From Aplysia californica (lineage: Eukaryota): a stretch of DNA of 64,000 nucleotides. The translations under genes and the position numbers were made by a program. Below are positions 20,828 to 63,587 of the stretch, one piece after another. A model generated the notes under the pieces. The model was not told the DNA's origin. It did not search any database and saw nothing but the letters and a program-made list of their open reading frames with translations. Positions within the stretch are counted from its first letter, which is position 1. Each line of letters opens with the position of its first letter. The stretch covers positions 286,929 to 350,928 of the forward strand of contig NW_004797935.1 of the NCBI RefSeq assembly GCF_000002075.1, in the 5' to 3' direction.

Positions 20828-21767
20828 TTAAATGTTTCTTTCTGAAACAAAGTAGAATGAGAACACAGTCTTGTTCAAATTATTTTTTACTGACTGAAAT
20901 GAAACTCCCAAAACATCAAACAACAGGCAATGTCATAATACAAATTGAACTAATAACTCATCAGGTAGTTTCATTGTGAACCATGCAAATAATATTAATA
21001 AATTACGTCCTTGGTATTATATTCCATTTAAAAAACACCAATGGCCTAGGGCAAAATTCATCTAAATGTCAAGACAAGACAAACTTGTGACAGGAGAATT
21101 TTAAAAAAAAATCTTTTTCCAAACATAGCACAGGAACAAAGATGCTTTGATCCCATGACTGTTTGATACACAAGTATAATTAGATTAGCAACTGGGATAA
21201 AAACAGAAACAATGCAAAATTGGGTTTCCGTTCCTTGCTGTTTCATGTATAAAATCATCAAAGTGAATTCAAGAGTTAAGAGCGTGTAATCTGTTGCTTG
21301 CACTGCATGCTTCCTTGGAAGCCTAGCATGTTTCTGAGTGTTCTTGCTAGGGTAATAATAGTTGTAAAGCACAAAGAGCATGCTTTAGAGCGTTGATATA
21401 CACTATATAAATGCAACTGTTACGGTATCGTTATAAAATTATTATTTCATTTTGGCCTACACGAATGTTCAGCAAATTAATAAATCTCGTGGCTGAGATA
21501 TAACTGTTACAGTGCAAAATGGAATTTTTGTGCCGTTTCAGACGCTGGATTGGAAAAGTAAGTAAAGTAAAGTACTGTTTCAAACACAAAAGCATCAGAG
21601 AGAAATCAGAGTTCGATGTTTTTGTGCCCAAGGCCATCCATAAAAAATTTCAAAATATCATTGATCAATAATCGTCCAAATATCCTCTAGCTCAGATTAA
21701 TCGCCACAATGTCATGACTTTTTTTTCCGGAGAGAAGTGACCATGTTGCTTCAAGGTAAACCACTTG

Positions 21768-38211: not shown

Positions 38212-41200
38212 TTATCCCCTCACATACTTTGGCTTTGGCGTGGTGGGGCTGTAGGGCTGGAAGAGGTGCAACATCACAGCCTAGGAAAACAGAAAAAGTT
38301 TATTTTTTTCAAGTTTAGTAAAAGGGTTTTTCTTTTTTTTTTAAGTAAAAGTTTTACGGCACTTGCAACACAATAAAGTCGTATGAGTGCCGAAGAATAG
38401 AGATGTTACAAGAGAGTAACATACACAAAAAAGGAGGAGAGATAAGGACGATAGATGTCTGATAGGAAAGAAGGAGCAAACCACACCAGAGCAACCGCCA
38501 ATCACCCACTTAGTTAGAGTTTTATGGCACTTGGAACAAAAATAGGTTATATAAATGCGGAAGATTAGAGGTGCTGCTACAGATTAACATACAAAGGAAA
38601 GAAGGAGGAGAGATTATAATGATAGATGTTTGGTAGGAAACAAGGAGCAAACCACACCAGAGCACCTGCCAACCACCCATACAGAAAATCTATTTTTTTT
38701 TAAAGGGAGAACACAAAGTTTAGTGAAAAACTTACACATTGGTCCGGACTAAAGAAAAACAAAAAAAAAACACAATATATATATATATTTTAGCAGCAGT
38801 TCTGGGTAGTAATAGATAGTTCTAAAATAAGCAAACAAACAAGAACTTACCTTCTCTCTAAAAAGTGGAATCATGTTGTCATGGTTAAAAAAACACACAC
38901 AAAAACTGAAGGCAGCTACAAGTACAAGCACCCAGAAAATTACATACATACTTACACACATGCAATGACTAGTGGAGGGGAAAGGGGGGGGGGATGTGGG
39001 AGGGGGCAGGGANNNNNNNNNNNNNNNNNNNNNNNNNNNNNNNNNNNNNNNNNNNNNNNNNNNNNNNNNNNNNNNNNNNNNNNNNNNNNNNNNNNNNNNN
39101 NNNNNNNNNNNNNNNNNNNNNNNNNNNNNNNNNNNNNNNNNNNNNNNNNNNNNNNNNNNNNNNNNNNNNNNNNNNNNNNNNNNNNNNNNNNNNNNNNNNN
39201 NNNNNNNNNNNNNNNNNNNNNNNNNNNNNNNNNNNNNNNNNNNNNNNNNNNNNNNNNNNNNNATTGTGATCCACAGCCTGTTCTCGGCGGCCCTCCAAAC
39301 CAATGACTCCTGGCCGTAGTAAATGTCGTCCGTGACTTCGTGGGGCCGGCGTGGCAGACTGTGCAGGAACACCCACTCTCCACCCGCTTCCTTCATCATC
39401 TGATGAAAATGGAAAACATAAAATTTTATAGCTGCCAACTATTCAAAAACAAAAAGAAAAAAACCATACTCTACCCCCAAAGCGGGTTAAAATGGTGGGC
39501 ATAGGCCAACTAACCCGCATCCAAACTCAAAAAATTTTTCTGCATTTAATAAATTCAAGCTATTCAAAGTAGACCTGCTACAAAAGATCTCTCCAAGTGA
39601 CTTACGGGCTTTGTTCTCATCATTATTGGCAAATCCATCTTGAAAGTTTGTAATTTTTCTACAGTATTAGACCATTAAGAGTAATACTAGAAAAACAGAG
39701 AATACATATTTTTTTACACCAAAAAAAACAGATTTTCGTATTAGACTCTTACAAAGTCTATAAATATATTAACTTCACAACTGGAGAATGGAAGCACAGT
39801 TTTTCATGTTTTGTTGTAAATCAGATTCCCAGCAATCTACTATTGAAATTTGAATGTTCAAAACTTTAAAACATTTTAAACTCTCCATGGCATTTCCATT
39901 AATTTTACTGACTTCCCCAATTAATTATCAGTTACTAAATACAATGCAGCATAAAAAACAAACAGTTGATAGGGAATAACCCCCCCCCCACACACACACA
40001 CACACAAAAACAACAACAACAACAACAATTTTAAAAACAAGATGTTCCGTCCAACCTTTCTATTCACTCCAAATCCAGCAAAATCTTTAATTCTTTTCTT
40101 GATGTTTTCATCGTCTGCTCCTGGTTTTGTCCACGAGTCTGCGATGATGGCATCAGCCCGGTACACAGCTTGCAACGGATCATTACCGATGAGGAAAGAC
40201 GCCCCAGTCTACAACAAAAGACCAGACAACATTTGTTTTACTTCTTTCAGCAGGAAAAAAAAGTTAAATCTCTTGCCAAGCAAAGCTTGAGAATTAAAAC
40301 AAAAGAGCATAAATAAAAAATAATCAATGGATTGTTCTTGCCACTTACTCGCTTATACAATCTCAAAGAGCAGTGTGAATTAGCTGAACAAGCAACAGGG
40401 GACATAACAATGGATCAGCAGAACATGGTAACAGGGGACATAACAATGGATCAGCAGAACAGGGTAACAGGGGACATAACAGTGTGGATCAGCAGAACAG
40501 GGTAACAGGGGACATAACAGCGTGAATCAGCAGAAAAGGGTAACAGGGGACATAACAGTGTGGATCAGCAGAACAGGGTAACAGGGGACATAACAGAATA
40601 TCTAAATACCAGTTGTTGTTTGGTGTGGGTTTTTTTTTGGGGGGGGGGGGGGTGGTAAGTGTTTTACGGCGCTCGCAACTGCATAAGGTCATATGAGTGA
40701 GCGGGACACACCTAACATTTTCAGATGGTAGGAAATTAAAAATTTTGCCCGGGTGACGGCCAAAGAGTCAGGAGCCCAGAGGAGGGAGCAAAGGAGGTGG
40801 GGGGGAGGGGGGGGGCAGAAAGTGGAGACAACAGCAGACGACAGAATATTGCTAGATTGCTGGAAAGGAGGTGAAAGGAGACAATTTTAGAGAAAAAATT
40901 GTTCCGTCGCTACCTGTATTCGAGTCCGGGACCTTTGAATAAGAGGCGAACACCTTAACCTCTAGGTCACAAGAGCCCCCATACCAGTTTTAACATCAGG
41001 AGAACAGAGTTCTGTTTAACTGACATCTATAAGCAGGCACACAGATTATGAGACAGTCTGAATTCATGATATCTGCTTGTACTAATTTGTGCTGTATAAA
41101 TGTATTGCACAAACTGTGCACTCCTTTTCCAAAATGTTTATTTGATTTGACTAGAATGAAAAAAGGTAGTGAAAATAATTACCAGTCTTCATTCAGAATA

Positions 41201-44200
41201 TTGAATTGAGTAAACAATATTTCAAAACATATTTTCTGACGCCTTAAGGGCAATCATGGTAAGCTTTTTGTGAATTTAAGTGTAAAATAAGATGTACTTA
41301 AACATACTTCTGGGATTTTTAAAACTCTTTATTCACCACTGGATATGACATGAACCTAACATCTGCAGATAAATTTCATTCAACATCATTTCTAGCCCGT
41401 GGCTGTAGAACTAACACTGCACGTACCTGCCCTGAGATCTTCATAGCGTCCAGCATAACATCTGTGTCTGGCTCATAGCCCTGAAGAGGAAGCAACCGTC
41501 AAACCCAACAGTATTTGAAACAGTTAAAAATATTCTTCTGAAGCAAAATGGGTAAAAATAAATCTTTGTTCAAACAAGGCTAAATGTATTTCATCAAAGA
41601 TTAGAATGGTCCACAAGTAGAAGTATGTAATTACGATGAAATTTTCAAAGACAGCAACAAAGCCATAGAAAACAACCACATCTCAATAACAGGGTAACAT
41701 TCTTTTGACATCACGGAAAGAAAACTAAAAATTTGAAGAAAGAAAAAAAAGGTGTCAAAAGACAATTTCAACACATTATATAAACCCTAGGCATGCTAGT
41801 TAGTTATATTATAACTGGCTAGCATGCTTAGGGTTTATCAAACAAAGAGACAGAGAGAGTTCATGCCCACTTACACACTGTTTGGGCATGCTTGGGTGAG
41901 CAAGTTGTGCATTATTGAATGTGTATCATAGTACATGAAAGTAAGTAGTGTATTTCTGTGTTGATGCTGAATCTTTGTATGTTGATATTCCTTGAATATA
42001 TCCATTCAAAATTTCCTCTCTGGGTCCATAAAGTTTATTTTACCTCATCGTATCTTATTTTATCTTATCTTAACTTACCTTACCTTATCGTATCTTACCT
42101 GATCTAACCTTATAAGCTGTTTGATTCCCCTAAACAGTGTCAGACTCACCACTGGTGTGGCTGTATTGAGGTCAATGCCTAACCTAGCACAGCCGTACAA
42201 CAGAGAGTTGAGGACGCTGTTTCCGTCTCCGATCCAGGCAATCTTGAGGCCTCGCAAATAGCCAAAGTATTCCTGTACGAAAATAAGCACACAATACCCA
42301 TACGATAAGGAAACTGAATTGTGCAACAGTTAAGTATATGGACAACTGTGTAAATCACTGAATACACAACAGCATCAAGTAGAACAGTCAGGATACATAT
42401 GCTCATTTATTGATAACAAAAGAGGTGGAAAGAGGAAAAAGGACAGGNNNNNNNNNNNNNNNNNNNNNNNNNNNNNNNNNNNNNNNNNNNNNNNNNNNNN
42501 NNNNNNNNNNNNNNNNNNNNNNNNNNNNNNNNNNNNNNNNNNNNNNNNNNNNNNNNNNNNNNNNNNNNNNNNNNNNNNNNNNNNNNNNNNNNNNNNNNNN
42601 NNNNNNNNNNNNNNNNNNNNNNNNNGAGCTTGGGGTGTGGGTGTGTGTGTGTGTCTGTGTATGCAAAGGGGGGGGGGGGATGATGAACTATTATATCCTA
42701 CTTCTGAATTTACTAAATGTAGGTGTATGCACAATATTCAGGTAATCAGCACTGCCTTGGCCTTTTACGGGACGTTCACACCCTAGCCCTACAAGATACC
42801 AGGTGAGCTATCAGCGCCAAGTACCATAATAAAATCAGTAATAATAGATCGCATTTGTATAGCGCAAATCCCCGCTCAACAGCAAGCTCTAAGCGCTTCA
42901 CAATCTATACTATTACCCCAGCAGACCTGAGAGCATTCTGAAACAAACTCAACTTCCTGGGAAGCATACAGTACAAGCAGCCATTTATAGGCGCTTAAAC
43001 ACTAACATACTGACAAGATCTTTCGCCGTCTATGGCTTGGTACCCATTCCCACCTGGGAGAAGTGAAGACAGTTCGTGTAAAGGGCCTTCCCCAAGGACA
43101 CAACGTCGGGCCCGCAGCTTGAACCCCTGAACCCGCAACCTCACAATTACAAGTCCGGTAGCCTAACCACTAGGCCACCGACGCCACAGTAATAAGAATC
43201 TATTAAGCTGCAGCTTTTCTAAAATTTGTGACCGAGTTATAAGATTGTTTGAGATTAGTGGGGTTCTATCGGGGCTTTGTGAATGTTTCAAGCTTAGGTT
43301 TGTCGCAGTTTCTATCTGCAAACCACACATGGTGATCCAAGTCTCATTCTGAAATGAATATTCCGCTCTGAGAAAAATACACATTAACACACACACAAAA
43401 TTCTATCTGTTTTTGCTTTTAAAACTCACCATCTTAGATGTAAAACATCTCAAATGTACCTAAAATGTAGACAGAACCCTTTAATCTCATACATCAATAT
43501 TGTACTGTCAAGCAGGTGCATTGGGAAAGCTACTTTGTCTGCTAGTTTCTTTTTCTTTCTACAAATCCTCCTTTCTGAAAACAGTTTTTTCTTTGTACCT
43601 CTCATTGCTACTCTGCAGAGCGTGAAGTAAACAAGAATTTTTTTCAGCTTTCCTTTGCTATAAACTGGCTCATACCAAAGTGAAGTTGAAAATGCAATAT
43701 AGAATAGGCCCTACAAGGAAAAAAAAGTTGGACAAAAACTTTAACTTTAAGAAAAAATACGAGAAAAAAATACTACTCATCCCTCAATACTTTTAAATAA
43801 ACAAGGACAGGAAAATCTAAGTATTTAAGAGTAAAATGCAAGTATATAAGAAGCTGCAAATCTGAATACTCTCCATTTAATTATAAAGGGAGATATCGTA
43901 TCAGCATCAGCAGATGCACATAGTTCATATATAAGTAAAAACAGAGGAATAGCAACAAACACAACATGTTAGAGATTCTCTCATTTTTACCTGCAGCGTG
44001 ACAAAATAGGCCAAGACCTGCAGAGGCTGAAGCAGGTCAGACATTCCAGTGACCACAGGCACCGTTGACTCATTGGCAACTTCTTCCAGAACTTCCTGTT
44101 TTCCCGCACCGACGATGATGAGATCAGCAGCCCCGGCCAGCAACCTGGACAATCATACACACACATGTTTGTTCATTATTTACAACAAAAAAAATTTGTT

Positions 44201-47200
44201 AATGTGGGTGTTTTTACGCCCCTATTTGTCCCCGCGTTTTTTTGCAAAAAAAAATCTGAAACTATACAAACTGAGCAGAAAAAATGTGAAATTATGCGAT
44301 TCTGTTAATTTTAACAAAGAAAGATAAAGGAAAATCATCAGAAATTATGCAAAAAGTGATCAGATTTTGCTAAACTATGCGGAGTGCATAAAACCCCGGG
44401 AACAGCCCTATCAATACAATGTAGATCATATAGGAGGCAGACTCTGACCCTGCCTGTCAGAGCCAACCTAGGCTGAGAGGGAAACAACACCCTGGCAGAA
44501 ATACTGAGACACTTGACGAAATTCTCCCCACTCAGGAACCAAACGTGGGTCTCCTGTATGCTTGAACGAAGTGCCTAACCCCTACACCACAGTTGCCGGT
44601 TGATATAGACTTGTTTAAGAGAAAGTAAGAGGAGGGGAAAATTAGGCAGGGCAAGGGCACGGGAAAATCCCCCCCCCCCCCCCTTTATTTATGAGATGTG
44701 CTATGACACAATTGAATTTTCATTCAATGTTAAAATAAAGGGTCAAAACAATTATTTTTGTGAACAGGAAATATGTAAAAGGTAAATATTGATATAATAA
44801 TATATAAAGACATTCTAATTCCTTAAACTATTAAAAGGCTTGTAACCTCGACGATGAGTCAGAAAAATCAGACATAATGTAAAACACATTAACTGATTAT
44901 AATCTAAATATGCTTAGACATACATTGATCAATACTGAAAACAAAATATGAACTCTTTTTTTTCACAAACATAAACAAAGTATATCAGCCATAGAGACAA
45001 TACCTCCTTATTCAGTGCAGTGTATTCTGATTCAGAGCTTCTTTCTGCTTCTTCCTTTTCAGTCACAAAATTCAGAGCAATAGCCAGCAAAAATTTCAAG
45101 TAGAAAAAGATAAATAAACAGGGTGGAACATCACCATTCTACACTAACTTACCTTGCAGAATCTTTCCAGTTTTCCTTCCCATCAAGGTGAAGGTCACTG
45201 GCGTTGAAGTAAGCCGCCTGGCCACCAAGTCTCGCCAGACCTGAGCCACAAAAATTATCTCATTCACAATACTGAGCTTGTTTCCTTACTATACAGAAAA
45301 CTGAACTCAACTTTATTATTTCTTTTCCTTAATCTGAAAAGGCTCCAAAAGAAGCTCTCAGTTCAAAACAAAATTTTTAAAATTTGTGGATGAGAAGCAG
45401 TGACATGAGGAATCAATGCTTGACTACTGACTCTATGAAGTTGGAAATGTATGAAACAATTTCATTTTCATACAGGATTTTTTTTAAAATCAAAAGGGTA
45501 TATCAGCACCAAGATTGCTCCCAACATTGCATCATTTGACACAGCTTCTGCTCTTTCTAAATATTGGTAGCCAACAGGTAGACCCCACACAACTATTTCT
45601 TTTATTTAAAAAAAAAAAAAAACGAAGAGGAAAAAACTGACCAATCTGATATTCTTCAAAACAATTCAAATACTTTTAAAAAACCCAAGGGTATATTTAC
45701 CAATGTATACTCGAGCCTCGTTTCGGACACGGATTTTTTTCACACACACACACACACGCAAAAAATCCAGACAATAGAACAGCAATATTCACCTAGCTCA
45801 GCATTAAGCCGAGAAGCTGTATCATCCTTTTCAAAAACTAGCGCTGCAGTTTTGCCAGTTAGTGGCTGAAGCACCTAAGAACAAAAAAATACAGATAGTT
45901 TGAGCAGTATGAAAATCATCATTAAGCTGTCCCCGTCATTTTATGCAAGAAAAATTCTGAGATTATGCAAACTGAGCCCAAAAATGTAAAAATATCGATT
46001 CTGTTAATTTTAACAAAGATTGATAAAGGAAAATAATCAGAAATTATGCAAAAAATGATCAAATTTTGCTAAATTATGCAGGGTGCTTAAAACACAGGGA
46101 CAGATTAAGATTTCTTTTCACCACGGCCATAAAAGATTTCTTTTCACCATGACCATAAAATGCACTAAGTTTACGTACGACAGCCCACCTTCCCCACCCC
46201 CCCAGAAATAAGTGAATAAGTGTGGTAGTGAGCTCAAATAGAGAAAGGTAGACGCTGATATGAAATAAAAGATGTTGTTGTTATCGGTCAAGAAGAAATA
46301 AAAGAAATAAAAGATAAATGAAGGGCACCATATTGTTGCTAAAGTGTTCACATAAGAAAAGGATTCAAGAGCATACAAGAAGATATCACGGAATCAAGTG
46401 TATCTACAAAGCAAAAAAATATGTTTATACCTCTCCATTATCTTTTATTCTGGTTTTCAGATCCTTTGCTGTCCACAAAAACTGATGAATCTCATCTTTT
46501 CCGAAATGCTTCAGGCTGAGAAAGTCACGGCCCACCAGGAATCTGAACAGACAGACCAATTTGATAAATTTACGAGTCAACCTCACAAAGTTAGCTTTAA
46601 AAAATTGCACCAACGTGAATTTTAGACAATCAGGTTTTTTTCTTTTAATTCTAGCTTAAATACAATATACAGTGGGAACTTTTTACTATTCTCCATGTTG
46701 AGAAAATAATCAGATACAAAATATTAAAACTTCTTTTAAACTTTTAAAACTTCTCAGCTGGGGGTGCTATGCTCTTTAAGAAAAACAAAATGTTTTTTTT
46801 CCCACAGATTATTCAGTCCTCTTAATTAGACCTGTGCCCATTCGATTTCATTATTTGACATTCATGATTTTTTAACTATTCACAGCTATTCGAAGCGTGG
46901 CAGAGCCAATCGAATGCTGTGTGATTTTTTTCCGCAATGAATTTCTTCTAATTTTTCTCAACCCGTAGTAAAATTAAAGCATAATCAAATATCTAAATAC
47001 ACTGCTGTAAATTCGACGTTATGTTCTGATTGATGATTACGGGACAGAGCGATAAGAGGAGCCAGTAGGAGTTATAAAATGTGCCTCTAAAAAGCACTCA
47101 TGATGCACTCAATAGACTGTCACTTCAAAGTGCAGCCGGAGATTTTGTATACATTGCATAGCCTACTGAGCTCCTTTTGCACAATTCGATATTCGAAGTA

Positions 47201-50200
47201 CAAGACGATATGGGTACCCACCACCGCTTTGAAGCGCAGTGGCCATATGGGTACCCACCACCGCTTCGAAGCAAAGCGAATGTTTTTTTTGTACGTTGGC
47301 ATACTGAGCTCTCATTGGACAATGTGACATTCAAAGCATGGGTACCCACTCCACCACCGCTTCGAAGCGCAGTGAATGTTTTTTTTGTATGCAGGCATAC
47401 TTAGCTCCCCTTGCAGGATTCAAAGATTCAAAGCATAAGGCTATATGGGTACCCACCACCGCTTCAAAGCCAGAGGCCATATGGGTACCCACCGCCGCTT
47501 CAAAGCGCAGCGAATGTTGTGTTTATTTTTTTTTTATTGTAGGTTGACAGACTTACTTAGCTCCCCTTGACATTCGAAGCACAAGGTTATGAATGTTGTG
47601 ACGTGATGTCATTGCACCGCGGGGTGTCGTGCGGGATTAGAGCCAGTCGTGTTTTGATAGAACACAAAACAAAAACAAAAAAAGAACACCAAAAAATCAG
47701 CCAACCACCATAGCCTACTTGTGGGGAGATCCACAACATTTCTACAGTTTTTGGGTGGGCCTTGGCGCTGTGGGGGGATGGCACGCGGGGACTAACGAAA
47801 TGAGAGATAAGAGTATTATAAGCCGAGCGCGCAAGGCTAAAAATACACGTCACACACCTTGCTGTTACACTCACATGGCCTTTTGTCTCAATCTTTATTC
47901 CATTGTCTGTGCTCTCTCTTACTTTATGGCTGCACAGTAGATTGTTGGGAGTACATTCTGTTCCCTTGCTTTTGTCCATTTTAGGCCAGTTCTTTGATCG
48001 TTGCACTGATGTGTAATTTTAGAGATTGCATTGTCCTTCAGATTGCAAATTTGCATTCTGTTTCTGATTTATTTGTTCAAAATTGTATGTGTAATTTGTA
48101 TAGTTATTATTAGGCCTATTATACTGCCAACAGAATTCTCTTGAACCTTTTTACCCATTTACTGCTAGAAGTCTTAGCTTATATATAAATCTGCGCAGTT
48201 AAATTTAGTGTGATTTGATCAAACTGTACCATGTCAAGCAAACGCACAGAAAGTATTGTTTGGCAGTTTTTCTAGAAGAATAAAGAAATAAAGCTACCAA
48301 TAAAAGAACCTCCCAAAGACAATACAACTTAGCAAACAGCAGTGTTGTGCGACGCAGCGACAGTGTGCATGTGTGTTAGATCAATTGATCTCCGCTCGCT
48401 TGGTAAAAAGTTTTTTCTCTTGTCCAAGTTCCTTTTTTTTTCCTTCCAAGCAGACACTAGGCACGAGTGGTCGCCTGTTTTTATTATTCCCCCTCTCCCT
48501 TCCCCCTCTGCTACAGTCGCTTTTTTTTTATTTATTTTTAAAAAGCAACAAAAAAATTGTTTCATCATCGCACACGTTACGCAAGCCATGGGTGCTATAC
48601 GAAAAGAGGCAGACACACACAGAGCTGAGAATCACTGGATGAATAGTGCTGTGATTGTGAATAGTGAATATTCAATAAAGAATGCTGCTGATAGACTCAC
48701 GGCATTAGGCCTCACCTTAGGCCTACATGTACAAGTATAAAAAAAGCTATTCGCAAACGATATTCGAATAGCACAAATAGTGACATCGGGCTTCGAAGCT
48801 TCGATGATTTTTTAAAAACTCAAAATCGCACAGCATTACTCTTAAGAGTGCCTCTTAAATAGCCTTTATGTCTTAAATTGTGCAGACCGATAGCATAACA
48901 ATCTCCGAGACAGATTAAGAGGCCTGTTAATGAGGGGACATGATTTTTTCAGGTTGGGGGGTAGGGGGGTTGGAGAGGGGGAAGCAAATGTATAACAAAT
49001 AGCAACAGCAAAAGAATGTTTTTCAACATAAAATGCTCAAACTGGTTACAGCATAAAATTTTACAAAAAATGAATTGTGAAAATATCAGAATAATCTGAC
49101 TGAAAGGCAAACAATAAAAAAAAGGAGGAAACTTCAATATGCCTCAACTTAGTACCTCTTTGGCTTTGTTTTTTCTTCACCAGAGTCAGGAGTCAATTCG
49201 ATCTTGCTAGTCTTAGGTCTCAGAATGGAAGTCAGTGATTCCTTTTTCAGCATAGCCTTCTTCGCAAAATCCGGTGAGAATTTCCCACGCATGATGCTAA
49301 AACTGGATGTGTATAGGCATGAATACACTTAACTTATATTTAGTTTAAATAAAAATTACTATTGCAAGAAATTTAGTTTATAAAAACGGAATAAAGCACT
49401 ATTAAACTTCAATAGTGTTGTCTTTTAGTCGCAATGCATGTTGAGTCTGTACGATCTCATTGAGTCTGTACGATCTCATTTTATCAAGTACATGTATAAA
49501 AAAACAATATTGTCTCTGAAAAGAGGCAGAAGAAGAATCTACCAAAGACCTGTATCTTCTATCTTCTGTAAAAATACTGAAAAGACTGACCGCCAGAGAA
49601 AGACTCGTAGTACGAAACAGTTTTCTATCCTCAGATTCAATCAAAACAAACTGGAAATTTTCAAATCTTCAGATATATATATGCCTTTAGAACTTCTTTG
49701 GAAAGGGAATAACAATTAATTTCTGAGATACGAGTTTGTGTATTTTTAGAATAATTAGCCTTTTCGGCAGAACTGGAAAATTTTATAGGCCTATTTTTTT
49801 TTACTGCGACCATCAACCAGGTGGCACTTAGTCTTGGCAAGTCTAGTTCCAAGACCAGTGCACGCCTGCCTTGGAGAAGAAAGTGCAACTTCTTTATTCA
49901 TAAGGTTCACAAGAGGCAAGGAAAATATATTTCTGCCACAGTTTCAATTAAGTATCCCTAGAGGCTCTGACAGCGATAGAAAATAGAAGTGGATTATAAA
50001 TAGATTCCAATACTGGCATTTCAAAGCTTTTAAATTTATAAGACACGAACAAAACAATAATGAAACTAGATCTAGCTTTGACTGCTTTTGGGACTTTTTG
50101 TTTTTTTAATACGGAGAGCCCATTGCGGAAGGGATTAGATAACTAGTCTGGTCGGATCGATCGTCCGACTCGTCACATGACGAGGAAGCGAGTCGGGTGC

Positions 50201-53200: not shown

Positions 53201-53521
53201 TGGACTCGAGTCCGAATAACGACGGCCTTGTTTATAATGACAAAAATCCACCAAGTTTGAGAGCTTTCACATACTCAGAAAGCACATTTCACGATGTACA
53301 CATTTGAAATACGAATGGCAAATGTTTTGGTCAAGGTATACTCACGCATCAATATTACTGGAACTTGTGGAACTTGACGCCGAATCACTTTGACTTTCTC
53401 GAGCAGGCGGGGGGTCATTTTGGCTTGACTTAGAACTGGCTCTCGCGCTAGTTCTTAGCAGCAGTTTATGTGAACAGGAGGCTGAAGGCGCCTTCAAAAG
53501 AACTCGATGTAAAAAATTCAT
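38212..53521 (-). CDS. OTC: ornithine carbamoyltransferase-like protein, probably mitochondrial, catalytic motifs degenerate (candidate pseudoenzyme), 11 exons, ~429 aa
   Basis: Exons: 53521-53346, 49296-49156, 46542-46431, 45874-45793, 45240-45153, 44144-43991, 42272-42150, 41480-41427, 40208-40056, 39399-~39262 (donor in gap), 38280-38212. Fold motifs GRDFLSL, FEK, LGG, WIGDGN, GYEPD, FLH.LPR..EV, AENR.W, C-terminal YSP..PKPK. Internal exon sizes 82/88/154/123/54 nt equal those recalled for human OTC. The symbol denotes family, not demonstrated activity. Confidence 0.9.
40394..40595. repeat. 36-38-bp minisatellite, ~5.5 copies
   Basis: AACAGGGGACATAACA..TGGATCAGCAGAACAGGGT repeated. Confidence 0.95.
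40657..40980 (-). mobile_element. tRNA-derived SINE, family B (second copy)
   Basis: Head and tail match 33202-33707 in reverse complement. Confidence 0.85.
42838..43187 (-). mobile_element. tRNA-derived SINE, family A
   Basis: Colinear with 28988-29342; A-box TGGCCTAGTGG, GTGTCCTTGGGAAG, AATGGGTACC. Confidence 0.85.
44412..44597 (-). mobile_element. tRNA-derived SINE, family C
   Basis: Reverse complement aligns with 19157-19350. Confidence 0.7.
46827..48838. mobile_element. ~2-kb non-autonomous hAT-like element
   Basis: TAGACCTGTGC ... GCACAGCATTA termini; 8-bp TSD CTCTTAAT/CTCTTAAG; TTCGAA motifs; five internal TGGGTACCCAC..CCGCTT repeats at 47208-47512. Confidence 0.75.
51608..52157. 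mobile_element. element built of ATTCTCACCC/GGGTGAGAAT palindromes
   Basis: About 8 full or half palindromes in two arms around a GC-rich core; TTAGGACACAAC direct repeat at 51612 and 52146. Confidence 0.65.
52278..53222. mobile_element. fold-back element with TATTCGGACTCGAGTCCGAATA palindromes
   Basis: Left arm ~52278-52321 is the reverse complement of ~53110-53152; two more palindrome units to ~53220; CpG-rich core. Confidence 0.75.
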
Positions 53522-54191
53522 TTCAATTAATCTCCAGAATCTACCAGCTGGTGCAACAAAAACTAAGTCCAAGAATAAACCAGATCCAAACAAACGCCGG
53601 CCTAACGGTCGTTGGGCATCTTCCGAAGCGAAAGTTCAGATTCCTACTTCTACCGGATGTTTTGATTCTGAATCTCAAAATAGTCTGCGGAAATTCCCGA
53701 TTTTCTCGTCGATCGATATAGCCTAATACAGTAATTCAGCTTAATCGATAGACCCGTTGCACCATGTTTTGAAACTGTGAAGAACAAAATTAGGACCTTG
53801 AAGGTCTGTCTAATAATACCAGAGTATTTATAAACTCGCTAATAATACTTTATGACGTTGTTTGAACCCGTGGTGCAATCTTCGCGCTGGTTGAGTATAA
53901 AACGAACTGTTTTGCTTAGTAACGTTCAGAGAAAAATGTGATCGGAGTGGAAAACGCTCCGTGAGCGTGACTTGTTGAAAATAATATTATTGATATGTGA
54001 AGCTTGGTGCCTGTGAGTACCACATTTTCAAGTCCAAAGCAAAGAAAAGGACCCCAAGCCGAGACCAAGAGGACCCCTGCGTCTTCAATTTGTCAAGTCA
54101 AAAGCCTTTATAAAGAAAGCACTTTGCGCCCTCGCCTCAACAGCGCGTGTGTGTGCCATATCTGACCGCCTCAGTTCGTGACTTTTTCTGA
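53522..54191. promoter_or_regulatory. putative bidirectional promoter and 5' UTRs; TATA box at 54109-54114 on +
   Basis: 670 bp between divergent ATGs; CpG-retaining and free of recognisable repeats; TATAAAG ~80 bp upstream of the eEF2-like ATG. Confidence 0.6.
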
Positions 54192-57100
54192 ATGGTATGG
54201 GATATTATTATGACTATGGATGTACCAATGAATTAAACAAACATTTTAAAGAACCTAGATGAATACATTAATTAATTCTGGGGAAACATTGATCCCATAG
54301 CTGACCTACTTGTTCTCGTACCAACAGGTTGAGTTTTCCATGATAAATTTTTGTAGAAACTGAATTTTTATTTTATCTGTGCAAAAAATGCCAGTCAACT
54401 CTCCAGTCTCTAGTCTGGCTTTGCCACAGAAAAATTCATCAGAAGTCGGAGTTTTCCATATACGTGTGCTTTCATTTTAGAACCATTGAAATAAACTTCA
54501 AATGTCTATTCACTTTTAAATATATATCACATGCACACTGCTGCACCAGTGATGTCTTTAAAACTAAAACTGATTTTACAGAGGTTACTTGTGCTTGTGC
54601 AATCCTTAAATTCTGTAATTTGTTTCTGCAATGTGCACATATAATGATGTACAGAAAAGTAAGAAGGCATAGCTAGGGGAAAGGGGAAATTTTAATCGAA
54701 GTGGCTAGCCGTACTTAAGTACTGCTAGACTAGCCGTACTTAGATCTAGGTTTGGCCCAATCGACTCAAGCCTGTTAAGTACACAGGTCTCATTAGATCT
54801 AGATCTAGTAATTATTCAGGTTCAAATACATGCAAGTCAGTAAGGCACCTTTTGGTTTTGTCTGAAATACAAATACTTTAGGCATTGCAAACTAAAAATT
54901 CCATTTACAATTCAGCCATCAATATTAAGTACGGCTAGCCTGACAGTCTAGCCGTCCTTAAGTACGGCTAGCCTGGCTGTCTACCCGTACTTAAGTACGG
55001 CTAGACTGGCAGTCTAGCCGTACTTAAGTACGGCTAGACTGCTAGTCTAGCCGTACTTATCTTAGGCCCTATTAACATTAGAAAACAGGAGGTTTAAAAT
55101 ACATGCACTGTCATTAAGGCACCTGGTTTTGTCTCAAATTCAAATACTTTAGGTACTTCACACTAAAAATGTATATTTACAATTCAGTAGGCCTATTTTT
55201 TGTAAATGGTCAGTCTAGCCATCATATTAAGAATAAGTACGGCTAGACTGTGAGTCTAGCCGTACTTAAGTACGGCTAGACTGCCAGTCTAGCCGTCATT
55301 AAGTACGGCTAGCCTCTTCCAATTTTAATTAAAGTGTTGTCCGTTCCGTAGCATATATACTAATGCAGGGGGAGAAAGACAGTGATGATGAAAAGTGACT
55401 TATGTAATGCAAGATAATATATCCTACCAAAAAAAAATCGATGCAATGATAGAGCCATTCTTCATATTTTCTTTCTTTTTTTTAGGGGGGGGGAGGGGAT
55501 GTTAGAGGAAGGTTGCAGCTAACATAAAAAGAGTAAAGAATGACTTGAGCTGTCATTGCATAGAATTTTTAATTAAGGCATTATCTCTGCGTTATGTGTG
55601 TCACTTTTCATTGAATGACCCATTTTTCCTATTCTGCAGAGGAATAGAATCTTAATTAAAAAGTTATGAACATATAGATGTACAAATTCTTTTATCAAGA
55701 AAATTCATGTGATAATCCTCTGAATTTACAGACATTTGCTGTCACATACAGATTTTTAAGTTGTCATATAATATATGTAATGTTCTACGATTAAAATTTT
55801 CCTGTTCTTGTCTTTATTGTCCACTCAGGTTCAATTAAGTGTCGAACAACTTCAACATGCACTGCGAAAGCGCAAGAATATCCGCAACATTGCTGTTATT
55901 GCCCATGTTGACCATGGAAAGACTACTCTTACTGATTCCTTGCTTGCGAGGGCTGGTGTGATCGCATCCTCACAGGCAGGTGATAAGAGGGCCACTGATA
56001 CTCTCAAATATGAACAAGAAAAAGGCATCACCATCAAGTCGACGTGAGTTGCCGTTTTCTCTTTTACAAAAGTGATGATGATAATTGTCTTTGAGATGGC
56101 AATTTTAAAAGTGTATTTCAATATTGGGTGCGGTTTTTACTATCTTTAGATGATTTCTGTCCTCGAGAATGCAATGTGTTTTTTTTATATGATTGGTTTT
56201 TCTTCTTTGAGAAATTCATAATCGTTTATTTTTTACTTCTTTATTATTTGCCTTTAGCTTAAATGTTATTTGACTGAAGCTGCTCATACCATTCGAGCTA
56301 TTGTCTGATTGTTGTTTCAATTTGGCTATCAGTACTTGCCATCTTTACTTGGTTATTGTACTAAAAAGGCATGTTTGTTTTAAATTTGTGGTTGTAAATT
56401 CTCCTTCTGACAGCGCTATTTTCAAATATATCAAAATATACATTTGTCTTTCTTTCAGCGCTATTTCCTTGTATCTCAGATTACCCATTTTTCTTTCTGA
56501 CAGCGCTATATCCTTGTATCTCAAATCACCCATTTTTCTTTCTGACGGGGCTATATCCTTGTATCTCAAATCACCCATTTTTCTTTCTGACAGGGCTATA
56601 TCCTTGTACTACAACTTGGAAGACAAGGATGTTGAGCAACTGGGGTCTGAAGGAACGGGTTTCCTGATCAACCTGGTGGACAGCCCTGGCCATGTAGACT
56701 TCTCCCCTGAGGTGACAGCCGCCCTGAGGGTGGTCGATGGAGCCATGGTGGTGGTGGACTGTGTCAGTGGTAAGTTACGTGTTGGTGGTCCAGTGGTTAG
56801 ACTTCACTCTCGACTGGAAGGTCGTGGGTTTGAATTCCATCAGGAGCGCAACGTTTTGCGTTTTGGAAAAGCATTTTACATGAATTTTCCAAATTCACCC
56901 TTTTGGGATTGGGTACCTGGCTATAGGCAATAAAAGATTTGGTCAGTTTGTTAGTACTTTAGCGCATGTAATTTGCAGCTTGGTCTATATGCTTTCTGTG
57001 AGGCCAAAAATGTTTCTTAGTTTTGTTCTTGTCTACTCAGGTAACTGTAGTTGTAAGGCACCTAAAGCATGCTGTAGAGCATAGATAGGAGCTATAAAAA

Positions 57101-60100
57101 TGCGAAATTATCATTAATTATTATTAACTCAGTTGATTTCGCTTTTTGAACATTTTTTTCCTGATTGAAACTCTTCAGCCTTTAGAGTTATACCACTGGG
57201 TAAAAGTAAAGTTACCACCAACTCTTAATAGAGATTTTATTGTGTTCTAAAAGGCTATGTGTGGTCTGCCATTCTATAAGGCTGTGAATGCTGGACTGTA
57301 TTGAAAAATATAAGGCAAGGGAAGCAGTGGCGTTTTGTGATGATCTTACACAGAGTGACTATGTCATCACTTCAACTACATTGTATTTCCCCTTTTATTT
57401 TTGCGTGTGTGTGTAGGCGTGAGCGTCCAGACAGAGACGGTGCTGCGACAAGCGCTGTCGGAGAGGATCAAGCCTGTGCTCATGATGAACAAGCTGGACA
57501 GGGCTGTGTTCGAGAAGGCTCTCACCGCGGAGGAAATCTACTGCACTCTCCGAGACGTTGTGGGCAGCGTCAATGCCCTCATCGGCATATACTGCGAGGA
57601 CGACTCACCCATGGGAGATTTGATGGTAAGTATACAAAGATTTATTATTTTTATATTTTGTTGTTGTTGTTTGTTTTAAATTAGAACAAAAGTTACGGAT
57701 CATTTTTGTAGTCTTTTGTTTGTGAAGAAACAAGATGTAACATTTTTTTTTTTTTGGTTGGATTATTAAGACTTTCAGCCAGAAACATGTGCTTCTGACG
57801 AATTCTATTTTGATCAGGTAGTTTTGTTGTATAGTTTGTTTTATTGTGCTCATAGCACCTGGTCTTATCGTGAGAAGGAAAGTTGTTATATCTTTGAATT
57901 CTGGGCAATGGAATAGACGGTGGAACGCTGTGTCATAAAGGTGGAAATATTGTTGGGAACATGTGGCTTAGGAGAAAATAATTTATTAATTAAACAGGCC
58001 AATTTTTCCTTGTCTGCTTTTCTTTATACGGCCTGTTATTGTTTTCATTCGGGAAATTTACAAACTGAATAAATCTGAGTAAATTTTTTCGCATTTTAAA
58101 AATCCTGTACAACTCTTCCGAATGTTAAAAACCTCTCCGGCATTGTTCCAGATGGATCCAGCCAAGGGCAATGTGAGCTTCGGCTCTGGCCTTCATGGCT
58201 GGGGTTTCAACCTCAAGCAGTTTGCTCGTCTGTACTCGAGCAAGTTCGGCATCAAGGAAGAACGTCTGATGAGAAGGCTCTGGGGGGAGCATTACTTCAG
58301 CCCGGCCTCACGTCAATGGAGCAAGCAGCCCGGAGAGGGACGTGTCAGGGGCTTCAACCACTTTGTCCTTGACCCTCTCCTCAAAGTGAGCAACGTTCTT
58401 TCAATGGGCTACCTATGAACAAATATTAATTATATCTTGGTTACTATCGTTGTTATTTTTCTTTGTACTTGGCTTTATGTTAAGTGCCAAGAGCTGTGTG
58501 CACACGAGAATAGGCACAGTAAAAATGATCCACATTATTATTATTAAAATTGATATTAAGATTGTATCAGATCCGAAACACAAGATTAGATGAAGAGTGT
58601 TGCTTATCTTTTTCGATTTCTCTCAGAACCCAGTTCAGGGTTGCTACTTTTCTGGAAATTTTGGAGATTCTAGATGTGGATTTTCTCCTCCAGATCCCAA
58701 TGCCTGCGTTCTGTGGAAAAAACATAAAATTTATATACCGGTATGTATNNNNNNNNNNNNNNNNNNNNNNNNNNNNNNNNNNNNNNNNNNNNNNNNNNNN
58801 NNNNNNNNNNNNNNNNNNNNNNNNNNNNNNNNNNNNNNNNNNNNNNNNNNNNNNNNNNNNNNNNNNNNNNNNNNNNNNNNNNNNNNNNNNNNNNNNNNNN
58901 NNNNNNNNNNNNNNNNNNNNNNNNNNNNNNNNNNNNNNNNNNNNNNNNNNNNNNNNNNNNNNNNNNNNNNNNNNNNNNNNNNNNNNNNNNNNNNNNNNNN
59001 NNNNNNNNNNNNNNNNNNNNNNNNNNNNNNNNNNNNNNNNNNNNNNNNNNNNNNNNNNNNNNNNNNNNNNNNNNNNNNNNNNNNNNNNNNNNNNNNNNNN
59101 NNNNNNNNNNNNNNNNNNNNNNNNNNNNNNNNNNNNNNNNNNNNNNNNNNNNNNNNNNNNNNNNNNNNNNNNNNNNNNNNNNNNNNNNNNNNNNNNNNNN
59201 NNNNNNNNNNNNNNNNNNNNNNNNNNNNNNNNNNNNNNNNNNNNNNNNNNNNNNNNNNNNNNNNNNNNNNNNNNNNNNNNNNNNNNNNNNNNNNNNNNNN
59301 NNNNNNNNNNNNNNNNNNNNNNNNNNNNNNNNNNNNNNNNNNNNNNNNNNNNNNNNNNNNNNNNNNNNNNNNNNNNNNNNNNNNNNNNNNNNNNNNNNNN
59401 NNNNNNNNNNNNNNNNNNNNNNNNNNNNNNNNNNNNNNNNNNNNNNNNNNNNNNNNNNNNNNNNNNNNNNNNNNNNNNNNNNNNNNNNNNNNNNNNNNNN
59501 NNNNNNNNNNNNNNNNNNNNNNNNNNNNNNNNNNNNNNNNNNNNNNNNNNNNNNNNNNNNNNNNNNNNNNNNNNNNNNNNNNNNNNNNNNNNNNNNNNNN
59601 NNNNNNNNNNNNNNNNNNNNNNNNNNNNNNNNNNNNNNNNNCCCCCCCCTTTGATTCTAGTGTATCCCAGAGTTCCAAGCCTGTTATGAAAGAAAAAGTG
59701 AGTCTATCCTTTTTTTTTAAGTCAAACTCACTCGAGACAAAACCGTTGCTTTGAAATTCAGGCTAAAATGAAAGGACAGCTTGAAACTCTTGTTGATTTG
59801 AAACAGTTGATAGAAAAACAGTGAGCAAAACACACCATGGATTTTCGATGATCGTTGAAATTTGGACTCAACCCCTGATTCAAGGATCATCAAAATTGAA
59901 ATTGAAAGACTTATCCTCCTGCAACCCCCACCCCCTTCCCTATATAAACAACATGTGGATGGACCAGTAAAAGGAAATGTTTTATGTCACCAGCAATGAA
60001 GGAGTGTGACCCCAATGGACCTCTCATGATGTACGTAGCAAAGATGATCCCGGCCGCGGAGAAGGGTCGGTTCTACGCCGTTGGCCGTGTGTTCTCTGGC

Positions 60101-60194
60101 ACCGTTTCTCCGGGACAAAAAGTGAGGATTATGGGCCCTGATTATGTTCCAAATGCAGTGAAAAAGCGAGACCTGTATGTCAAGAATGTACCCA

Positions 60195-60225
<31 letters not shown>

Positions 60226-63200
60226 GTAACAAATAGCATTTATGCTGCACATTTCCATTTTCTATTTTAAAAATGCTCTATGTGCATTACATTCATGAAA
60301 CAGGTACTTCAGTGAACTGTTTTGTCTAAAGTAAGACTAAAAGTAGTTGTTTTTTTGTGTGTTTTTTGTTTTTTTCATTAATAATGATTTATTATTTGGT
60401 ATTTTTCCTCATATCTTGACAATTAATTTTGAGTCAGATATGCTCATTTTGTGTATATTTTGTTAGAGGTGCTGATTCATGGTGGTTGTGGAAGGGAAAA
60501 GAGCCATGAAAGATTCATATTTTGTCGTGGCAATGATTTCAGGATTACAATTTTTTTGTTGTGAGTGTGTCCAGTATAGAGAAGTATTCTGTTTGTTGCT
60601 CAGCTCTTGCACCCTACCCCTATCACAAACACACACTGAAGGCTATTTAAAAGAAAGGAAAGAGGTGTATGAAATCTTGATAATATTAAAAAGCATTTTT
60701 CAAAACTGTGAGCTAAATTCTGTCCATTCTTCTATGAATATGAATCGATAACAACATTATGAATATGAACCTGTGGAGCCAGGTACATTGCAGATTATTC
60801 TAAAAAGTATCTGTGCAATGTGAGGGGAAGAATAGATGTTTGATAATACAATTTTTCTAATGTTTTCATTTCCATATAAAAGTTTGAGGTCATATTGTGT
60901 ACCTACTAGTTGTCATTGGCATGCTGATTTTCCCCCACAGAACGGTTCTCATGATGGGTGGCCAGGTACAGTCTGTTGATAACGCCCCATGTGGCAACAT
61001 CATTGGGCTGGTTGGTGTGGACAGGTACCTGCAGAAGACGGGAACCATCACGACTTTTGAGGAAGCACACAACCTGAAGGTGAGCTCAACTTTGCAATTG
61101 TCTCGGTCATAACACACTTGCTGTAGTTATTTTGTTATTGTTGTTGTTGCTGTTTTGTTTTGAGAAAACTTTAAAAAGAACCGTGTGCTGTGTAAGTCAG
61201 CCTTTTGACTTGAGCAATAGTGATCATATCTCAATAATTGGATTTTTAGTATACTAAACGAAACTCAGCCATGTTGAGGTTATGAAACAAGTATATAACA
61301 AGCATTTCTACTGGACTAGTGACTAGAAGCCTGAAAAAGCCTGAGGCAGTTATGACACTGAGGAAATTTAGCAAATGAATCAGAATCTATACCCTTAAAC
61401 TTAATAAATTGTACCCTCTCAGCACTATAGTGCAGAACGTGATGGAAGTTTTTTTTTTTGTAATCAAGGGCTTTACATAAATGGGAGTAATAGCTATTGC
61501 AAACCTGATTTTTTTTTTTTTTTCTAAATGTATGTGTTTTACACCCCTTCAACTCAATGTAGATCATATAGGATTAGGAGGCACGCTTCGACCCTGCTTG
61601 CCACTAAACCATTGTTGTAAAGTGTAATGAGCATGCTGTAGAGCGAGGAAATACGCTATATAAATGCAATTATTATTAGTATCATTAAACCGCAGAGGCC
61701 ACATTTACAGTTTTTGCTTCTGCCACCAGGTGATGCGGTTCTCGGTGAGTCCCGTGATGCGTGTGGCAGTGGACGTCGTCCATCCCCAGGACTTGCCCAA
61801 GCTGGTAGAGGGTCTGAGGCGACTCAACAAGGCCGAACCCCTCGTACAGGTCGGTACTCACACCAGACACGTGTCTGACTCACTGTAAAGGTGTGGATGG
61901 TCGATATCAAACCGGATAGACCATAGATACCATAAAAAATAATACAGGACACAGAACAACCAACACACCATGTTCATTAGCCGCCACACGCCCAGTGCAG
62001 TTTCCTTTATTGAAGAGCTCTCCTCAAGCATGAACAGTAGAATAGTTTCCCTTGTAGGGCACACAACATGGTTGCACCAAAATATTATGGTCCAAAATAT
62101 AATACTGTTACACTCACTGACTGTCAGGGGCTGTAATCCCAATGTAACCCCGACTGCCTGCATGTCGACAATGGTGTTTTTAACAATTTTATTGTCTGAT
62201 AACTATTCAAAGTAGACACTTATAATTTTCACTATCTATTATTTTTATATTGTGTTTTAAACACAAATGAAAACAGGTTTTCAGTAGATGTCGTACCTTT
62301 GTTTGCATGATTATTTGAAACACAAAAATTTTGGTCTTTGTTGTTTAGGATTTATTTTTCTTTTTTCTGTTCCGTCCAAAATATATATTATGTTGTATCA
62401 GTTCATAAACTTCCTTCCTTTCTTTGGGTCACATTTTGATTCGTTATGATTATTTCACTTTTTTGTGGGTGGTCGGAGGGCACCACTTGTCGTATTAATT
62501 CTTTTCTTTCCCTTTGTTGTTTCTGGGTATCTGTCTTGCTTTTTCCCTGCACTCTATGACAGTAATTGTGTCGATGTGCCTTTCTTTACTCAAAGTGTAT
62601 TTCACCTAGAGGGTGGTTGGCGAGTGCTCTTGTGTGGTTTGCTTCTTCTTTCCCATCGAACATCTATTATCTTTATCTCCCCACCTTATTTTTTGTGTTT
62701 GTTACTCTCTTGTAACCCCTCTAACCTTTGGCAGTTCTATGACCGTATTGTGTTGCAAGTGCTGTAAAACTAAAACTTCATTAAAATTTCACCTTTTTGA
62801 TGAAAATATATGTTTTTCCTCTCTGTACGTGTGTGTTTGTGTTTAGTGCACCAGCGAGGAGGGTCAGCACATTGTGGCGGGGGCCGGAGAGCTGCACCTG
62901 GACATTTGCCTGAAGGACCTGGAGGAGGAGTACGCCGGTGTGCCCATCAAGGTATGGACGCTGGGACTACTTTGCAGTAACCCTTCTCGCGATTTTTTAC
63001 TTTTTGTAAAGTCTTGCTGGATGAATTTGCAAAGCCAACTGTGTGATGTTTTGCTTGAGTTTTGCTAATGCTATACATATTTTTGGTAATACAGTATAAC
63101 ACGGGGATACCAGACAAAAATATTCCAAATCTTGATTCAGTCATTCAGAAGTAACATTAGCGAAAAAATGGCCTCCAAAGTTTGTTGACCTCCATAGCTT

Positions 63201-63587
63201 AAGAGTCCTTGAAAACTGTAAATTTACATTTTTTGTGACTTTATCTACAATTTTTTATAAAATCCACCCTAAAATATGTTTTTAATAGGTGATAAAAGAT
63301 GCTGATCTGAAAAAAGAAAATTGGGAAGAAAGTACCCAACGTCCAGGAAAATGCCTGTTTCTTTGATTTGGTCATTTTGACGAACGCCTAGCCTGATTTC
63401 ACCTGGCTGCCTCACATATCACCGGTGTTCTATTTGTCGACAGAGGTCGGAGCCCGTGGTGAAGTTTTGTGAGACGGTGATTCAGGAGTCTGACCGCGTC
63501 TGTCTGGCCAAGTCAAGCAACAAGCTGAACAGAGTGTTCATGACAGCCGAGCCGCTGCCAGACGGACTCAGCGAAGAGATTGAAAAT
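54192..63587 (+). CDS. EEF2: eukaryotic elongation factor 2-like protein (divergent paralogue), partial: continues beyond the window, and one or more exons are presumed in gap 58749-59641
   Basis: Exons: 54192-54194 (ATG only, then gtatgg), 55829-56043, 56594-56769, 57417-57625, 58152-58385, [gap], 59994-60195, 60941-61079, 61730-61849, 62847-62951, 63444-63587. Motifs [107 protein letters not shown]. Confidence 0.93.
54697..55320. mobile_element. MULE/fold-back-like MITE, 9-bp TSD
   Basis: CGAAGTGGCTAGCCGTACTTAA ... TTAAGTACGGCTAGCCTCTTCC (20/22); AATTTTAAT at 54688-54696 and 55321-55329; internal arrays of TAGCCGTACTTAAGTACGGCTA. Confidence 0.85.
56400..56608 (+). repeat. 45-bp tandem repeat spanning the intron 2/exon 3 acceptor of the eEF2-like gene
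   Basis: TTTCTGACAG|.GCTAT junction units ending at 56413, 56458, 56503, 56548 (AG>GG) and 56593. Confidence 0.92.
56781..57126 (+). mobile_element. tRNA-derived SINE, family A (diverged)
   Basis: TGGTCCAGTGG A-box, GGTTTGAATTC B-box, TGGGTACCTGGCTATAGGC, ATT-rich tail. Confidence 0.75.
60197..60224. repeat. (TAA)n microsatellite abutting a splice donor
   Basis: AG|gtaataataa... run. Confidence 0.9.

What the first reader, a model, noticed from the sequence alone, without database searches (positions are those of the whole stretch)
53346..54200. Degenerate OTC and variant eEF2 are head-to-head across a 670-bp spacer
Seen: minus-strand exon 53521-53346 ends GC|gtgagt and joins exon 49296 in phase; on plus, an ATG-only first exon (54192-54194, gtatgg donor) follows a TATAAA at 54109. 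The spacer has no recognisable repeat although both first introns are full of them. Inference: two independently diverged copies of housekeeping genes share one promoter and may be a co-regulated module, for example germline- or stress-specific. The linkage could also be chance.
Basis: partly seen in the sequence, partly recalled or inferred. Interest (0 to 1): 0.7.

Follow-up and report, generated by a model that had tools for sequence, protein, structure and literature searches.

The report
Disabled urea-cycle enzyme facing second eEF2
In the sea hare Aplysia, the only ornithine transcarbamylase gene found is spliced and expressed but has lost most of its active-site residues and is predicted to be inactive; it likely starts within about 150 bases of an old second copy of translation factor eEF2, a neighbourhood that land snails with a normal enzyme likely share, and if the enzyme is dead the animal would need arginine from its food.

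Summary
The head-to-head pair is real, but the reading needs changing. RNA reads put the eEF2-like start at 53927-53928, 32 nt after TATAAAA at 53896 (not the TATAAA at 54109). OTC transcripts reach at least 53776. So the likely promoter core is 152 bp or less, and most of the 670-bp 'spacer' is 5' UTR. The OTC is not a spare copy: it is the only OTC found in the genome and nests among gastropod orthologues. It has lost 9 of 13 substrate contacts yet keeps its frame, predicted fold and expression, so it is a predicted pseudoenzyme. No second carbamoyl-phosphate synthetase (CPS III) was found. The eEF2-like gene is an intact paralogue (58% to the canonical copy) whose clade includes bivalves and a limpet. 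In two land snails it carries neighbouring gene numbers with an OTC of normal active site; in two other gastropods the genes lie on different contigs. The two genes did not diverge together, and co-regulation is unshown. The notable result is the likely loss of citrulline synthesis with a retained dead enzyme.

The parts
53346..53776 (-). OTC exon 1: 5' UTR from at least 53776, ATG at 53521, coding part 53521-53346; predicted mitochondrial transit peptide (first 35 aa: 6 K/R, no D/E)
   Evidence: (contigs of X11 and X13 both end at 53776; contigs cannot prove a start)
49156..49302 (-).
46431..46542 (-). OTC exon, first of the enzyme body (FLVGRDFL...)
45793..45874 (-). OTC exon carrying the phosphate loop, KRSTRTR changed to KDDTASR
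45153..45240 (-). OTC exon
43991..44144 (-). OTC exon with R141G and H168Q (HPxQ motif lost)
42150..42272 (-). OTC exon with N199S
41427..41480 (-). OTC exon
40056..40208 (-). OTC exon with DxxxSMG changed to DxxxKPG
39262..39399 (-). OTC exon with HCLP changed to HSLP; R330 kept
38212..38280 (-). OTC last coding exon with stop
53777..53927 (.). Likely core of the divergent promoter, at most 152 bp between the 5' ends; spacer CpG o/e 1.11 against 0.59 for the window
53896..53902 (+). TATAAAA, 32 nt before the eEF2-like start; predicted TATA box
53826..53832 (-). TATAAAT on the OTC strand, 56 nt before the contig ends at 53776; candidate TATA box (spacing is long unless the true start is near 53800)
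53928..54194 (+). eEF2-like exon 1: 264-nt 5' UTR plus the ATG; TATAAA 54109 lies inside it
55829..56043 (+). eEF2-like exon 2 (G1 motif, Thr56-equivalent kept in an altered context)
56594..63587 (+). eEF2-like further exons in the window: 56594-56769, 57417-57625, 58152-58385, one exon with no match in the assembly (falls in N), 59994-60195, 60941-61079, 61730-61849, 62847-62951, 63444-63587; four more exons lie beyond the window end
58133..58143 (-). Predicted alternative OTC first coding exon (M-P-E-R, RefSeq isoform X3), antisense inside the eEF2-like gene; weak donor, not tested with reads

Best explanation
This is a likely old head-to-head gene pair on a compact promoter, in which the single OTC gene has since become a predicted pseudoenzyme in the Aplysia lineage while its neighbour is an intact, much older eEF2 paralogue. 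Shown: both genes are spliced in RNA-like contigs, their 5' ends lie within about 150 bp, only one OTC locus is found, and 9 of 13 substrate contacts are changed. Inferred: the adjacency existed in the common ancestor with land snails, when OTC was active, and persists because the two core promoters are packed back to back and a break would damage one gene. Inferred: the lineage lost CPS III, so OTC lost its carbamoyl-phosphate supply and its active site decayed (the order of the two losses is not known). Two acidic residues in the phosphate loop and loss of R141 and H168 would bar carbamoyl phosphate. The frame, fold and transit peptide are kept, so the protein likely retains a non-catalytic role in the mitochondrial matrix. 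Aplysia would then recycle citrulline to arginine but not make it from ornithine.
For: One OTC locus by four searches of G000: window exon, PF00185, PF02729, canonical Elysia OTC with 7 of 7 matches on C665; the other family hits are the ATCase part of CAD on C216. Tree: inside the heterobranch OTC clade, 100/100. Contacts named in PMC8517447 (passages): S90D, R92A, T93S, R141G, H168Q, N199S, S267K, M268P, C303S changed; T91, Q171, D263, L304 kept. At columns invariant in 26 canonical animal OTCs, 7 of 11 contacts changed against 16 of 77 other sites, Fisher p = 0.006; each canonical sequence changes 0-4 such columns. SxRT, HPxQ and the R141 arginine mark all known transcarbamylases (PMC4581275 passages). 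Model pLDDT 85, rmsd 1.4 A to human OTC over 319 columns. One CPS locus only, on the CAD contig, with PF00988, PF02787 and PF02142; argininosuccinate synthase present. Adjacency: Candidula CAG5123635.1 and CAG5123636.1 on one 159,049-bp contig; Bradybaena BsWGS_12987/12988 and BsWGS_12990 on one contig. 5' ends.
Against: No enzyme assay. Absence of CPS III and of a canonical OTC rests on a draft assembly with gaps (one eEF2-like exon has no match) and on a loose first-look search; CPS III was not checked in related gastropods. The OTC start comes from contig ends, which the tool says cannot show a start. Land-snail adjacency comes from gene numbers and contig lengths; orientation and spacing were not seen, and one tag (12989) lies between in Bradybaena. 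In Plakobranchus and Patella the two genes lie on different contigs. 16 of 77 non-contact invariant sites also changed, which fits general relaxation as well as a new role. The AlphaFold model was built from an alignment of active homologues and would look OTC-like in any case.
Confidence: 0.62

Rival explanations
1. The pair is a functional, co-regulated module: a shared promoter drives a specialised eEF2 and a non-catalytic OTC in the same cells, for example germline or stress.
For: 5' ends within about 150 bp; adjacency likely kept in two land snails; both genes present in the same two contig runs, and both nearly absent in run X23; human divergent pairs are often co-expressed (PMC12672016 passages).
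Against: Different ages and probably different compartments; the partner is a normal enzyme in land snails; different contigs in 2 of 4 species; 53 tagged reads at the eEF2-like start against none at the OTC start in X21 and X22; each direction has its own TATA-like box.
Confidence: 0.13
2. The adjacency is neutral: two independent TATA promoters happen to lie back to back and stayed together through slow rearrangement, and the OTC is simply decaying slowly, kept transcribed by the neighbour's open promoter.
For: Over 10% of human genes are divergent within 1 kb (PMC12672016); linkage apparently broken in Plakobranchus; long branches (stem 0.58, tips 0.43 and 1.58); 23 of 88 invariant columns changed; low OTC read counts.
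Against: No stop or frameshift over 10-11 exons despite that divergence; an unnamed relative shares 14 derived residues including S90D, R141G and D175Y and also keeps a full frame; changes are enriched at contacts (p = 0.006); 4 of 6 polymorphisms in exon 1 are silent (a small sample in the transit peptide).
Confidence: 0.15
3. A canonical OTC and CPS III exist but are missing from this assembly, and the window gene is a dead or diverged duplicate.
For: Draft assembly with gaps; a degenerate second OTC beside an intact one does occur in the slug Arion (P0027 and P0010).
Against: No other Aplysia-labelled OTC among the 120 listed of 310 hits; all three named isoforms lie on this contig; the gene sits at the position orthologous to an intact land-snail OTC; two unlinked multi-exon genes would both have to be missing.
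Confidence: 0.05
4. The protein is still an enzyme with a new reaction or substrate.
For: Fold kept; K88, T91, Q171, D263, L304 and R330 kept; transcarbamylases change their second substrate through loop changes (PMC4581275).
Against: It is the shared carbamoyl-phosphate site that is lost, not only the specificity loop; the unnamed relative has different residues at most changed sites, as expected from decay and not from a new conserved site.
Confidence: 0.05

Closest known systems
Animal mitochondrial ornithine transcarbamylase (human OTC, PDB 1OTH; gastropod orthologues)
   Same: Both Pfam domains over cut-off, predicted fold (rmsd 1.4 A), 44% identity to human and 50-65% to named molluscan orthologues, basic N-terminal extension.
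   Different: SxRT, R141, HPxQ, N199, SMG and C303 changed; 20 of 21 named molluscan proteins aligned keep the carbamoyl-phosphate motifs. RefSeq still names it OTC.
Bidirectional (head-to-head) gene pairs
   Same: Divergent 5' ends within 1 kb, CpG-rich spacer, likely conserved neighbourhood.
   Different: Each direction has a TATA-like box, whereas such promoters are usually TATA-poor (recalled, not from a call); output is strongly one-sided in the raw runs laid; co-expression unshown.
Eukaryotic elongation factor 2 (canonical copy on G000:C693)
   Same: All eEF2/EF-G domains, G1, G3 and G4 motifs, the diphthamide-position histidine, a threonine at the Thr56 position, ATG-only first coding exon (also in human EEF2; recalled).
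   Different: 58% identity; ETRFTD becomes DKRATD, ERC becomes EKG, and the loop before the histidine is altered, so eEF2-kinase control and diphthamide modification may differ (untested).
Pseudoenzymes in nitrogen metabolism, such as the inactive dihydroorotase subunits or domains attached to ATCase (PMC4581275 passages)
   Same: Fold kept, catalysis lost (predicted here).
   Different: Here the dead protein is the transcarbamylase itself, single-copy, with no active paralogue found to regulate.
Loss of arginine synthesis in insects, sea squirts and birds (PMC12419136 abstract start in listing; PMC2566978 and PMC13454818 passages)
   Same: Entry steps of the pathway missing, citrulline recycling kept.
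   Different: The OTC gene is kept, expressed and in frame with a ruined active site.

Membership tests
Active transcarbamylase / OTC | SxRT phosphate-binding motif | tested here: not met
   DTAS
Active transcarbamylase / OTC | HPxQ motif and conserved Arg141 | tested here: not met
   QPLQ and Gly
Active transcarbamylase / OTC | DxxxSMG ornithine loop | tested here: not met
   DxxxKPG
Active transcarbamylase / OTC | HxLP motif | tested here: met
   HSLP; the usual Cys303 is Ser
OTC gene family (orthology) | Two-domain fold and place in the OTC tree | tested here: met
Active transcarbamylase / OTC | Citrulline formation, homotrimer, mitochondrial location | not testable with these tools
   No assay; the trimer was not modelled; transit peptide judged from composition only
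Pseudogene | Stops, frameshifts or no transcript | tested here: not met
   Open frame with GT-AG junctions (one donor is under N in the window); spliced contigs in 2 runs
eEF2 | G1/G3/G4 motifs, five-domain architecture, diphthamide-position histidine | tested here: met
eEF2 | Ribosomal translocase activity, diphthamide modification, Thr56 phosphorylation | not testable with these tools
   Residues present, flanks altered
Bidirectional promoter | Divergent starts within 1 kb | tested here: met
   At most 152 bp by reads and contig ends, 670 bp between ATGs
Bidirectional promoter | Shared elements and correlated expression | tested here: inconclusive
   Five runs without tissue labels; one-sided read counts in X21 and X22
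Bidirectional promoter | Conserved head-to-head arrangement | tested here: inconclusive
   Neighbouring gene numbers in 2 of 4 species; orientation not visible

The most novel reading that the evidence does not exclude
A clade of sea slugs gave up arginine synthesis and turned its only OTC into a non-catalytic mitochondrial regulator or ornithine/arginine sensor, co-transcribed from one tiny promoter with a specialised mollusc eEF2, so that dietary arginine supply and translation elongation are tuned together.
Probability: 0.07. Interest if true: 0.85.

Novelty: new variant of a known kind. Interest (0 to 1): 0.5.

Why it matters
Aplysia is a major neuroscience model in which haemolymph L-arginine inhibits feeding through nitric oxide (PMC3052382, passages). 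If it cannot make citrulline from ornithine, circulating arginine would report dietary intake directly, a testable basis for that signal. A single-copy OTC kept as an expressed dead enzyme would point to a non-catalytic role of OTC, and databases annotate it as a normal enzyme. A second eEF2 shared by gastropods and bivalves bears on work that treats Aplysia eEF2 as one gene. My searches found no paper on either point (open-access library only, mostly listings). The head-to-head layout itself is ordinary.

Tried and rejected
TATAAA 54109 as the promoter: rejected, it lies in the 5' UTR. OTC as a duplicate of a canonical gene: no second locus. C216 hits as OTC: they are ATCase/CAD. Second CPS: PF02142 hit on C687 reads like the purine enzyme ATIC (label recalled), hits on C145 and C481 are noise. 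NAGS (PF04768): no match, but the control rang over cut-off in 0 of 14 genomes, so uninformative. Canonical eEF2 next to an OTC: it is on C693, where no OTC match lies. One search listed no holder on record as RNA; this is no evidence either way. More degenerate OTCs or genomic contigs in metagenome contigs: 374 pattern matches, none confirmed. The representatives search added only P0024, already known. Earlier findings: none. IQ-TREE for eEF2 failed on an option clash, so FastTree was used. No complex was modelled: a trimer would pass by likeness to solved OTCs. Poly-A loose ends at 53981 (17 reads) sit at an A-rich stretch and were taken as library priming. Supplements were not read; those of the Achatina preprint (closed) may list urea-cycle genes.
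Full report
Setting. The window is G000:C665:286929-350928. Source names of proteins on a contig of the same length identify the animal as Aplysia californica. Exons were read by eye and checked by coordinates: an OTC-like gene on the minus strand (53521-38212, up to 11 coding exons, open frame) and an eEF2-like gene on the plus strand from 54192, ending about 4 kb beyond the window.

Observation. The exon ends, the ATG-only coding exon and the 670 bp between the ATGs are as described. RNA changes three details (two raw RNA runs, two contig runs whose RNA nature is a guess). First, 53 reads begin at 53927-53928 with loose ...GGGG ends (21 in X21; 24 + 8 in X22). I read these as template-switch marks of a 5' end; this is inference, not CAGE. 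The site is 32 nt after TATAAAA at 53896, and contigs of 3055 and 3336 nt splice the ATG to exon 55829. TATAAA 54109 is therefore inside a 264-nt 5' UTR. Some contigs and a read reach further upstream (53861, 53797, 53742), so minor upstream starts may exist. Second, OTC contigs in both runs end at 53776, so its 5' UTR is at least 255 nt and the 5' ends are at most 152 bp apart; the tool warns that contigs cannot show a start. Third, OTC exon 1 joins exon 46542 in both runs; the 49.3-kb exon is optional (RefSeq X1, acceptor 49302). The spacer is single-copy and CpG-rich (o/e 1.11 against 0.59). Its lack of repeats is shared by 7 of 84 tiles and is expected, since about 519 bp of it are exon.

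The OTC is the only one found. Four searches of the own genome give this locus alone; a canonical Elysia OTC matches 7 of 7 times on C665. The remaining family hits are the ATCase of CAD on C216. I aligned 34 sequences: three isoforms, 28 top animal-like hits of the 120 listed (310 found) and three distant controls. In a tree of 32 rows the protein nests in the heterobranch OTC clade (100/100) beside an unnamed sequence, P0024 (100/99; both branches long, so attraction is possible, but they share 14 derived residues). Of 13 contacts named in PMC8517447 (passages), 9 are changed: S90D, R92A, T93S, R141G, H168Q, N199S, S267K, M268P, C303S (human numbering set from the alignment and checked on the canonical rows). 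Of 21 named molluscan proteins, 20 keep the carbamoyl-phosphate motifs (two of them are partial at the C-terminus); the exception is a second Arion copy. At invariant columns, 7 of 11 contacts changed against 16 of 77 others (p = 0.006); for P0024 the same test is not significant (6 of 11 against 23 of 70, p = 0.15). PMC4581275 (passages) gives SxRT, HPxQ and the R141 arginine as common to all transcarbamylases. The model is confident over the enzyme body and matches human OTC at 1.4 A, though it was built from active homologues. I conclude: predicted pseudoenzyme, not a pseudogene, not a spare copy.

The pathway. Three CPS domain families find one CPS locus, on the CAD contig. Argininosuccinate synthase and an arginase-family gene are present; the NAGS search was uninformative. 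Invertebrate ureagenesis uses CPS III (PMC2566978, passages), and land snails raise urea-cycle genes in aestivation (bioRxiv 2020.02.02.930693, passages). The likely picture is loss of the mitochondrial entry steps. Caveats: draft assembly, loose search, CPS III not checked in relatives.

The eEF2 paralogue. RefSeq P0392 (836 aa) is 58% identical to the canonical copy on C693 and keeps G1, G3, G4, the diphthamide-position histidine and a threonine at position 56, with altered flanks. In a FastTree tree of 26 rows (24 picked from 120 listed hits, plus the two Aplysia genes) it falls in a clade with support 1.0 holding 8 sequences close to or from heterobranchs, 4 bivalves and a limpet. The duplication would thus predate the bivalve-gastropod split; no other canonical molluscan eEF2 was in the tree, and long-branch attraction is not excluded.

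Linkage. Candidula carries the two genes under consecutive accessions on one 159-kb contig. Bradybaena has BsWGS_12987/12988 (eEF2-like) and BsWGS_12990 (OTC) on one contig. Both neighbours have normal motifs. Plakobranchus and Patella have them on different contigs. So 2 of 4 testable species agree, both land snails, with orientation unseen. The adjacency likely predates the OTC decay and is likely not obligatory.

Co-regulation. Not shown. In X21 and X22 the eEF2-like start is well tagged while the OTC start has no minus-strand read and exon 1 about one read each; X23 has almost none of either. Five unlabelled runs allow no correlation. Divergent pairs within 1 kb make up over 10% of human genes (PMC12672016, passages), so the layout alone is common.

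Mechanism and verdict. An old neighbourhood held by tightly packed back-to-back core promoters; in the Aplysia lineage carbamoyl-phosphate supply and the OTC active site were lost, and the protein persists for a likely non-catalytic role (0.62). Rivals: co-regulated module 0.13, neutral adjacency with slow decay 0.15, missing canonical genes 0.05, new enzyme 0.05. Six literature searches (listings only, apart from the papers cited as passages) found no description of the dead OTC or the paralogue; subscription papers are not covered. Arginine regulates Aplysia feeding through NO (PMC3052382 and PMC13454818, passages), which makes the auxotrophy prediction worth a test. Interest 0.5; new variant of known kinds.

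Noticed in passing
window 58143-58131 (-): RefSeq OTC isoform X3 begins M-P-E-R, which fits one minus-strand ATG plus weak donor inside the eEF2-like gene (1 match, 0 expected): a predicted antisense alternative first exon giving a protein without transit peptide, or an annotation artefact.
   Followed up: partly
P0024 (unnamed transcript-sized contigs): An even more degenerate OTC sharing 14 derived residues with the Aplysia protein; suggests the decay is older than the genus.
   Followed up: partly
P0027 (Arion second OTC copy): Separate degeneration (R141E, C303S, M268V) of a duplicate beside an intact copy.
   Followed up: no
P0127, P0128, P0130, P0132-P0134, P0139: Land-snail eEF2 paralogues have HC in place of HR at the diphthamide loop; three bivalves and the limpet have ATHT in place of the TDT motif; Bradybaena has two near-identical tandem copies.
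   Followed up: no
window about 6900-21000 (+): A Utp14 gene, convergent with the OTC gene (two exons match PF04615).
   Followed up: partly
window 56420-56600: Tandem copies of the acceptor and first codons of eEF2-like exon 56594, offering in-frame alternative acceptors.
   Followed up: no
window 53098-53220, 51626-52140, 54700-55320: Families of 33-35-bp palindromic repeats in both first introns, some transcribed from other loci.
   Followed up: no
window 53936, 53995 (+) and 53765, 53619 (-): Upstream ATGs in both 5' UTRs: two start-stop minimal uORFs before eEF2-like, and uORFs of 9 and 5 codons before OTC.
   Followed up: no
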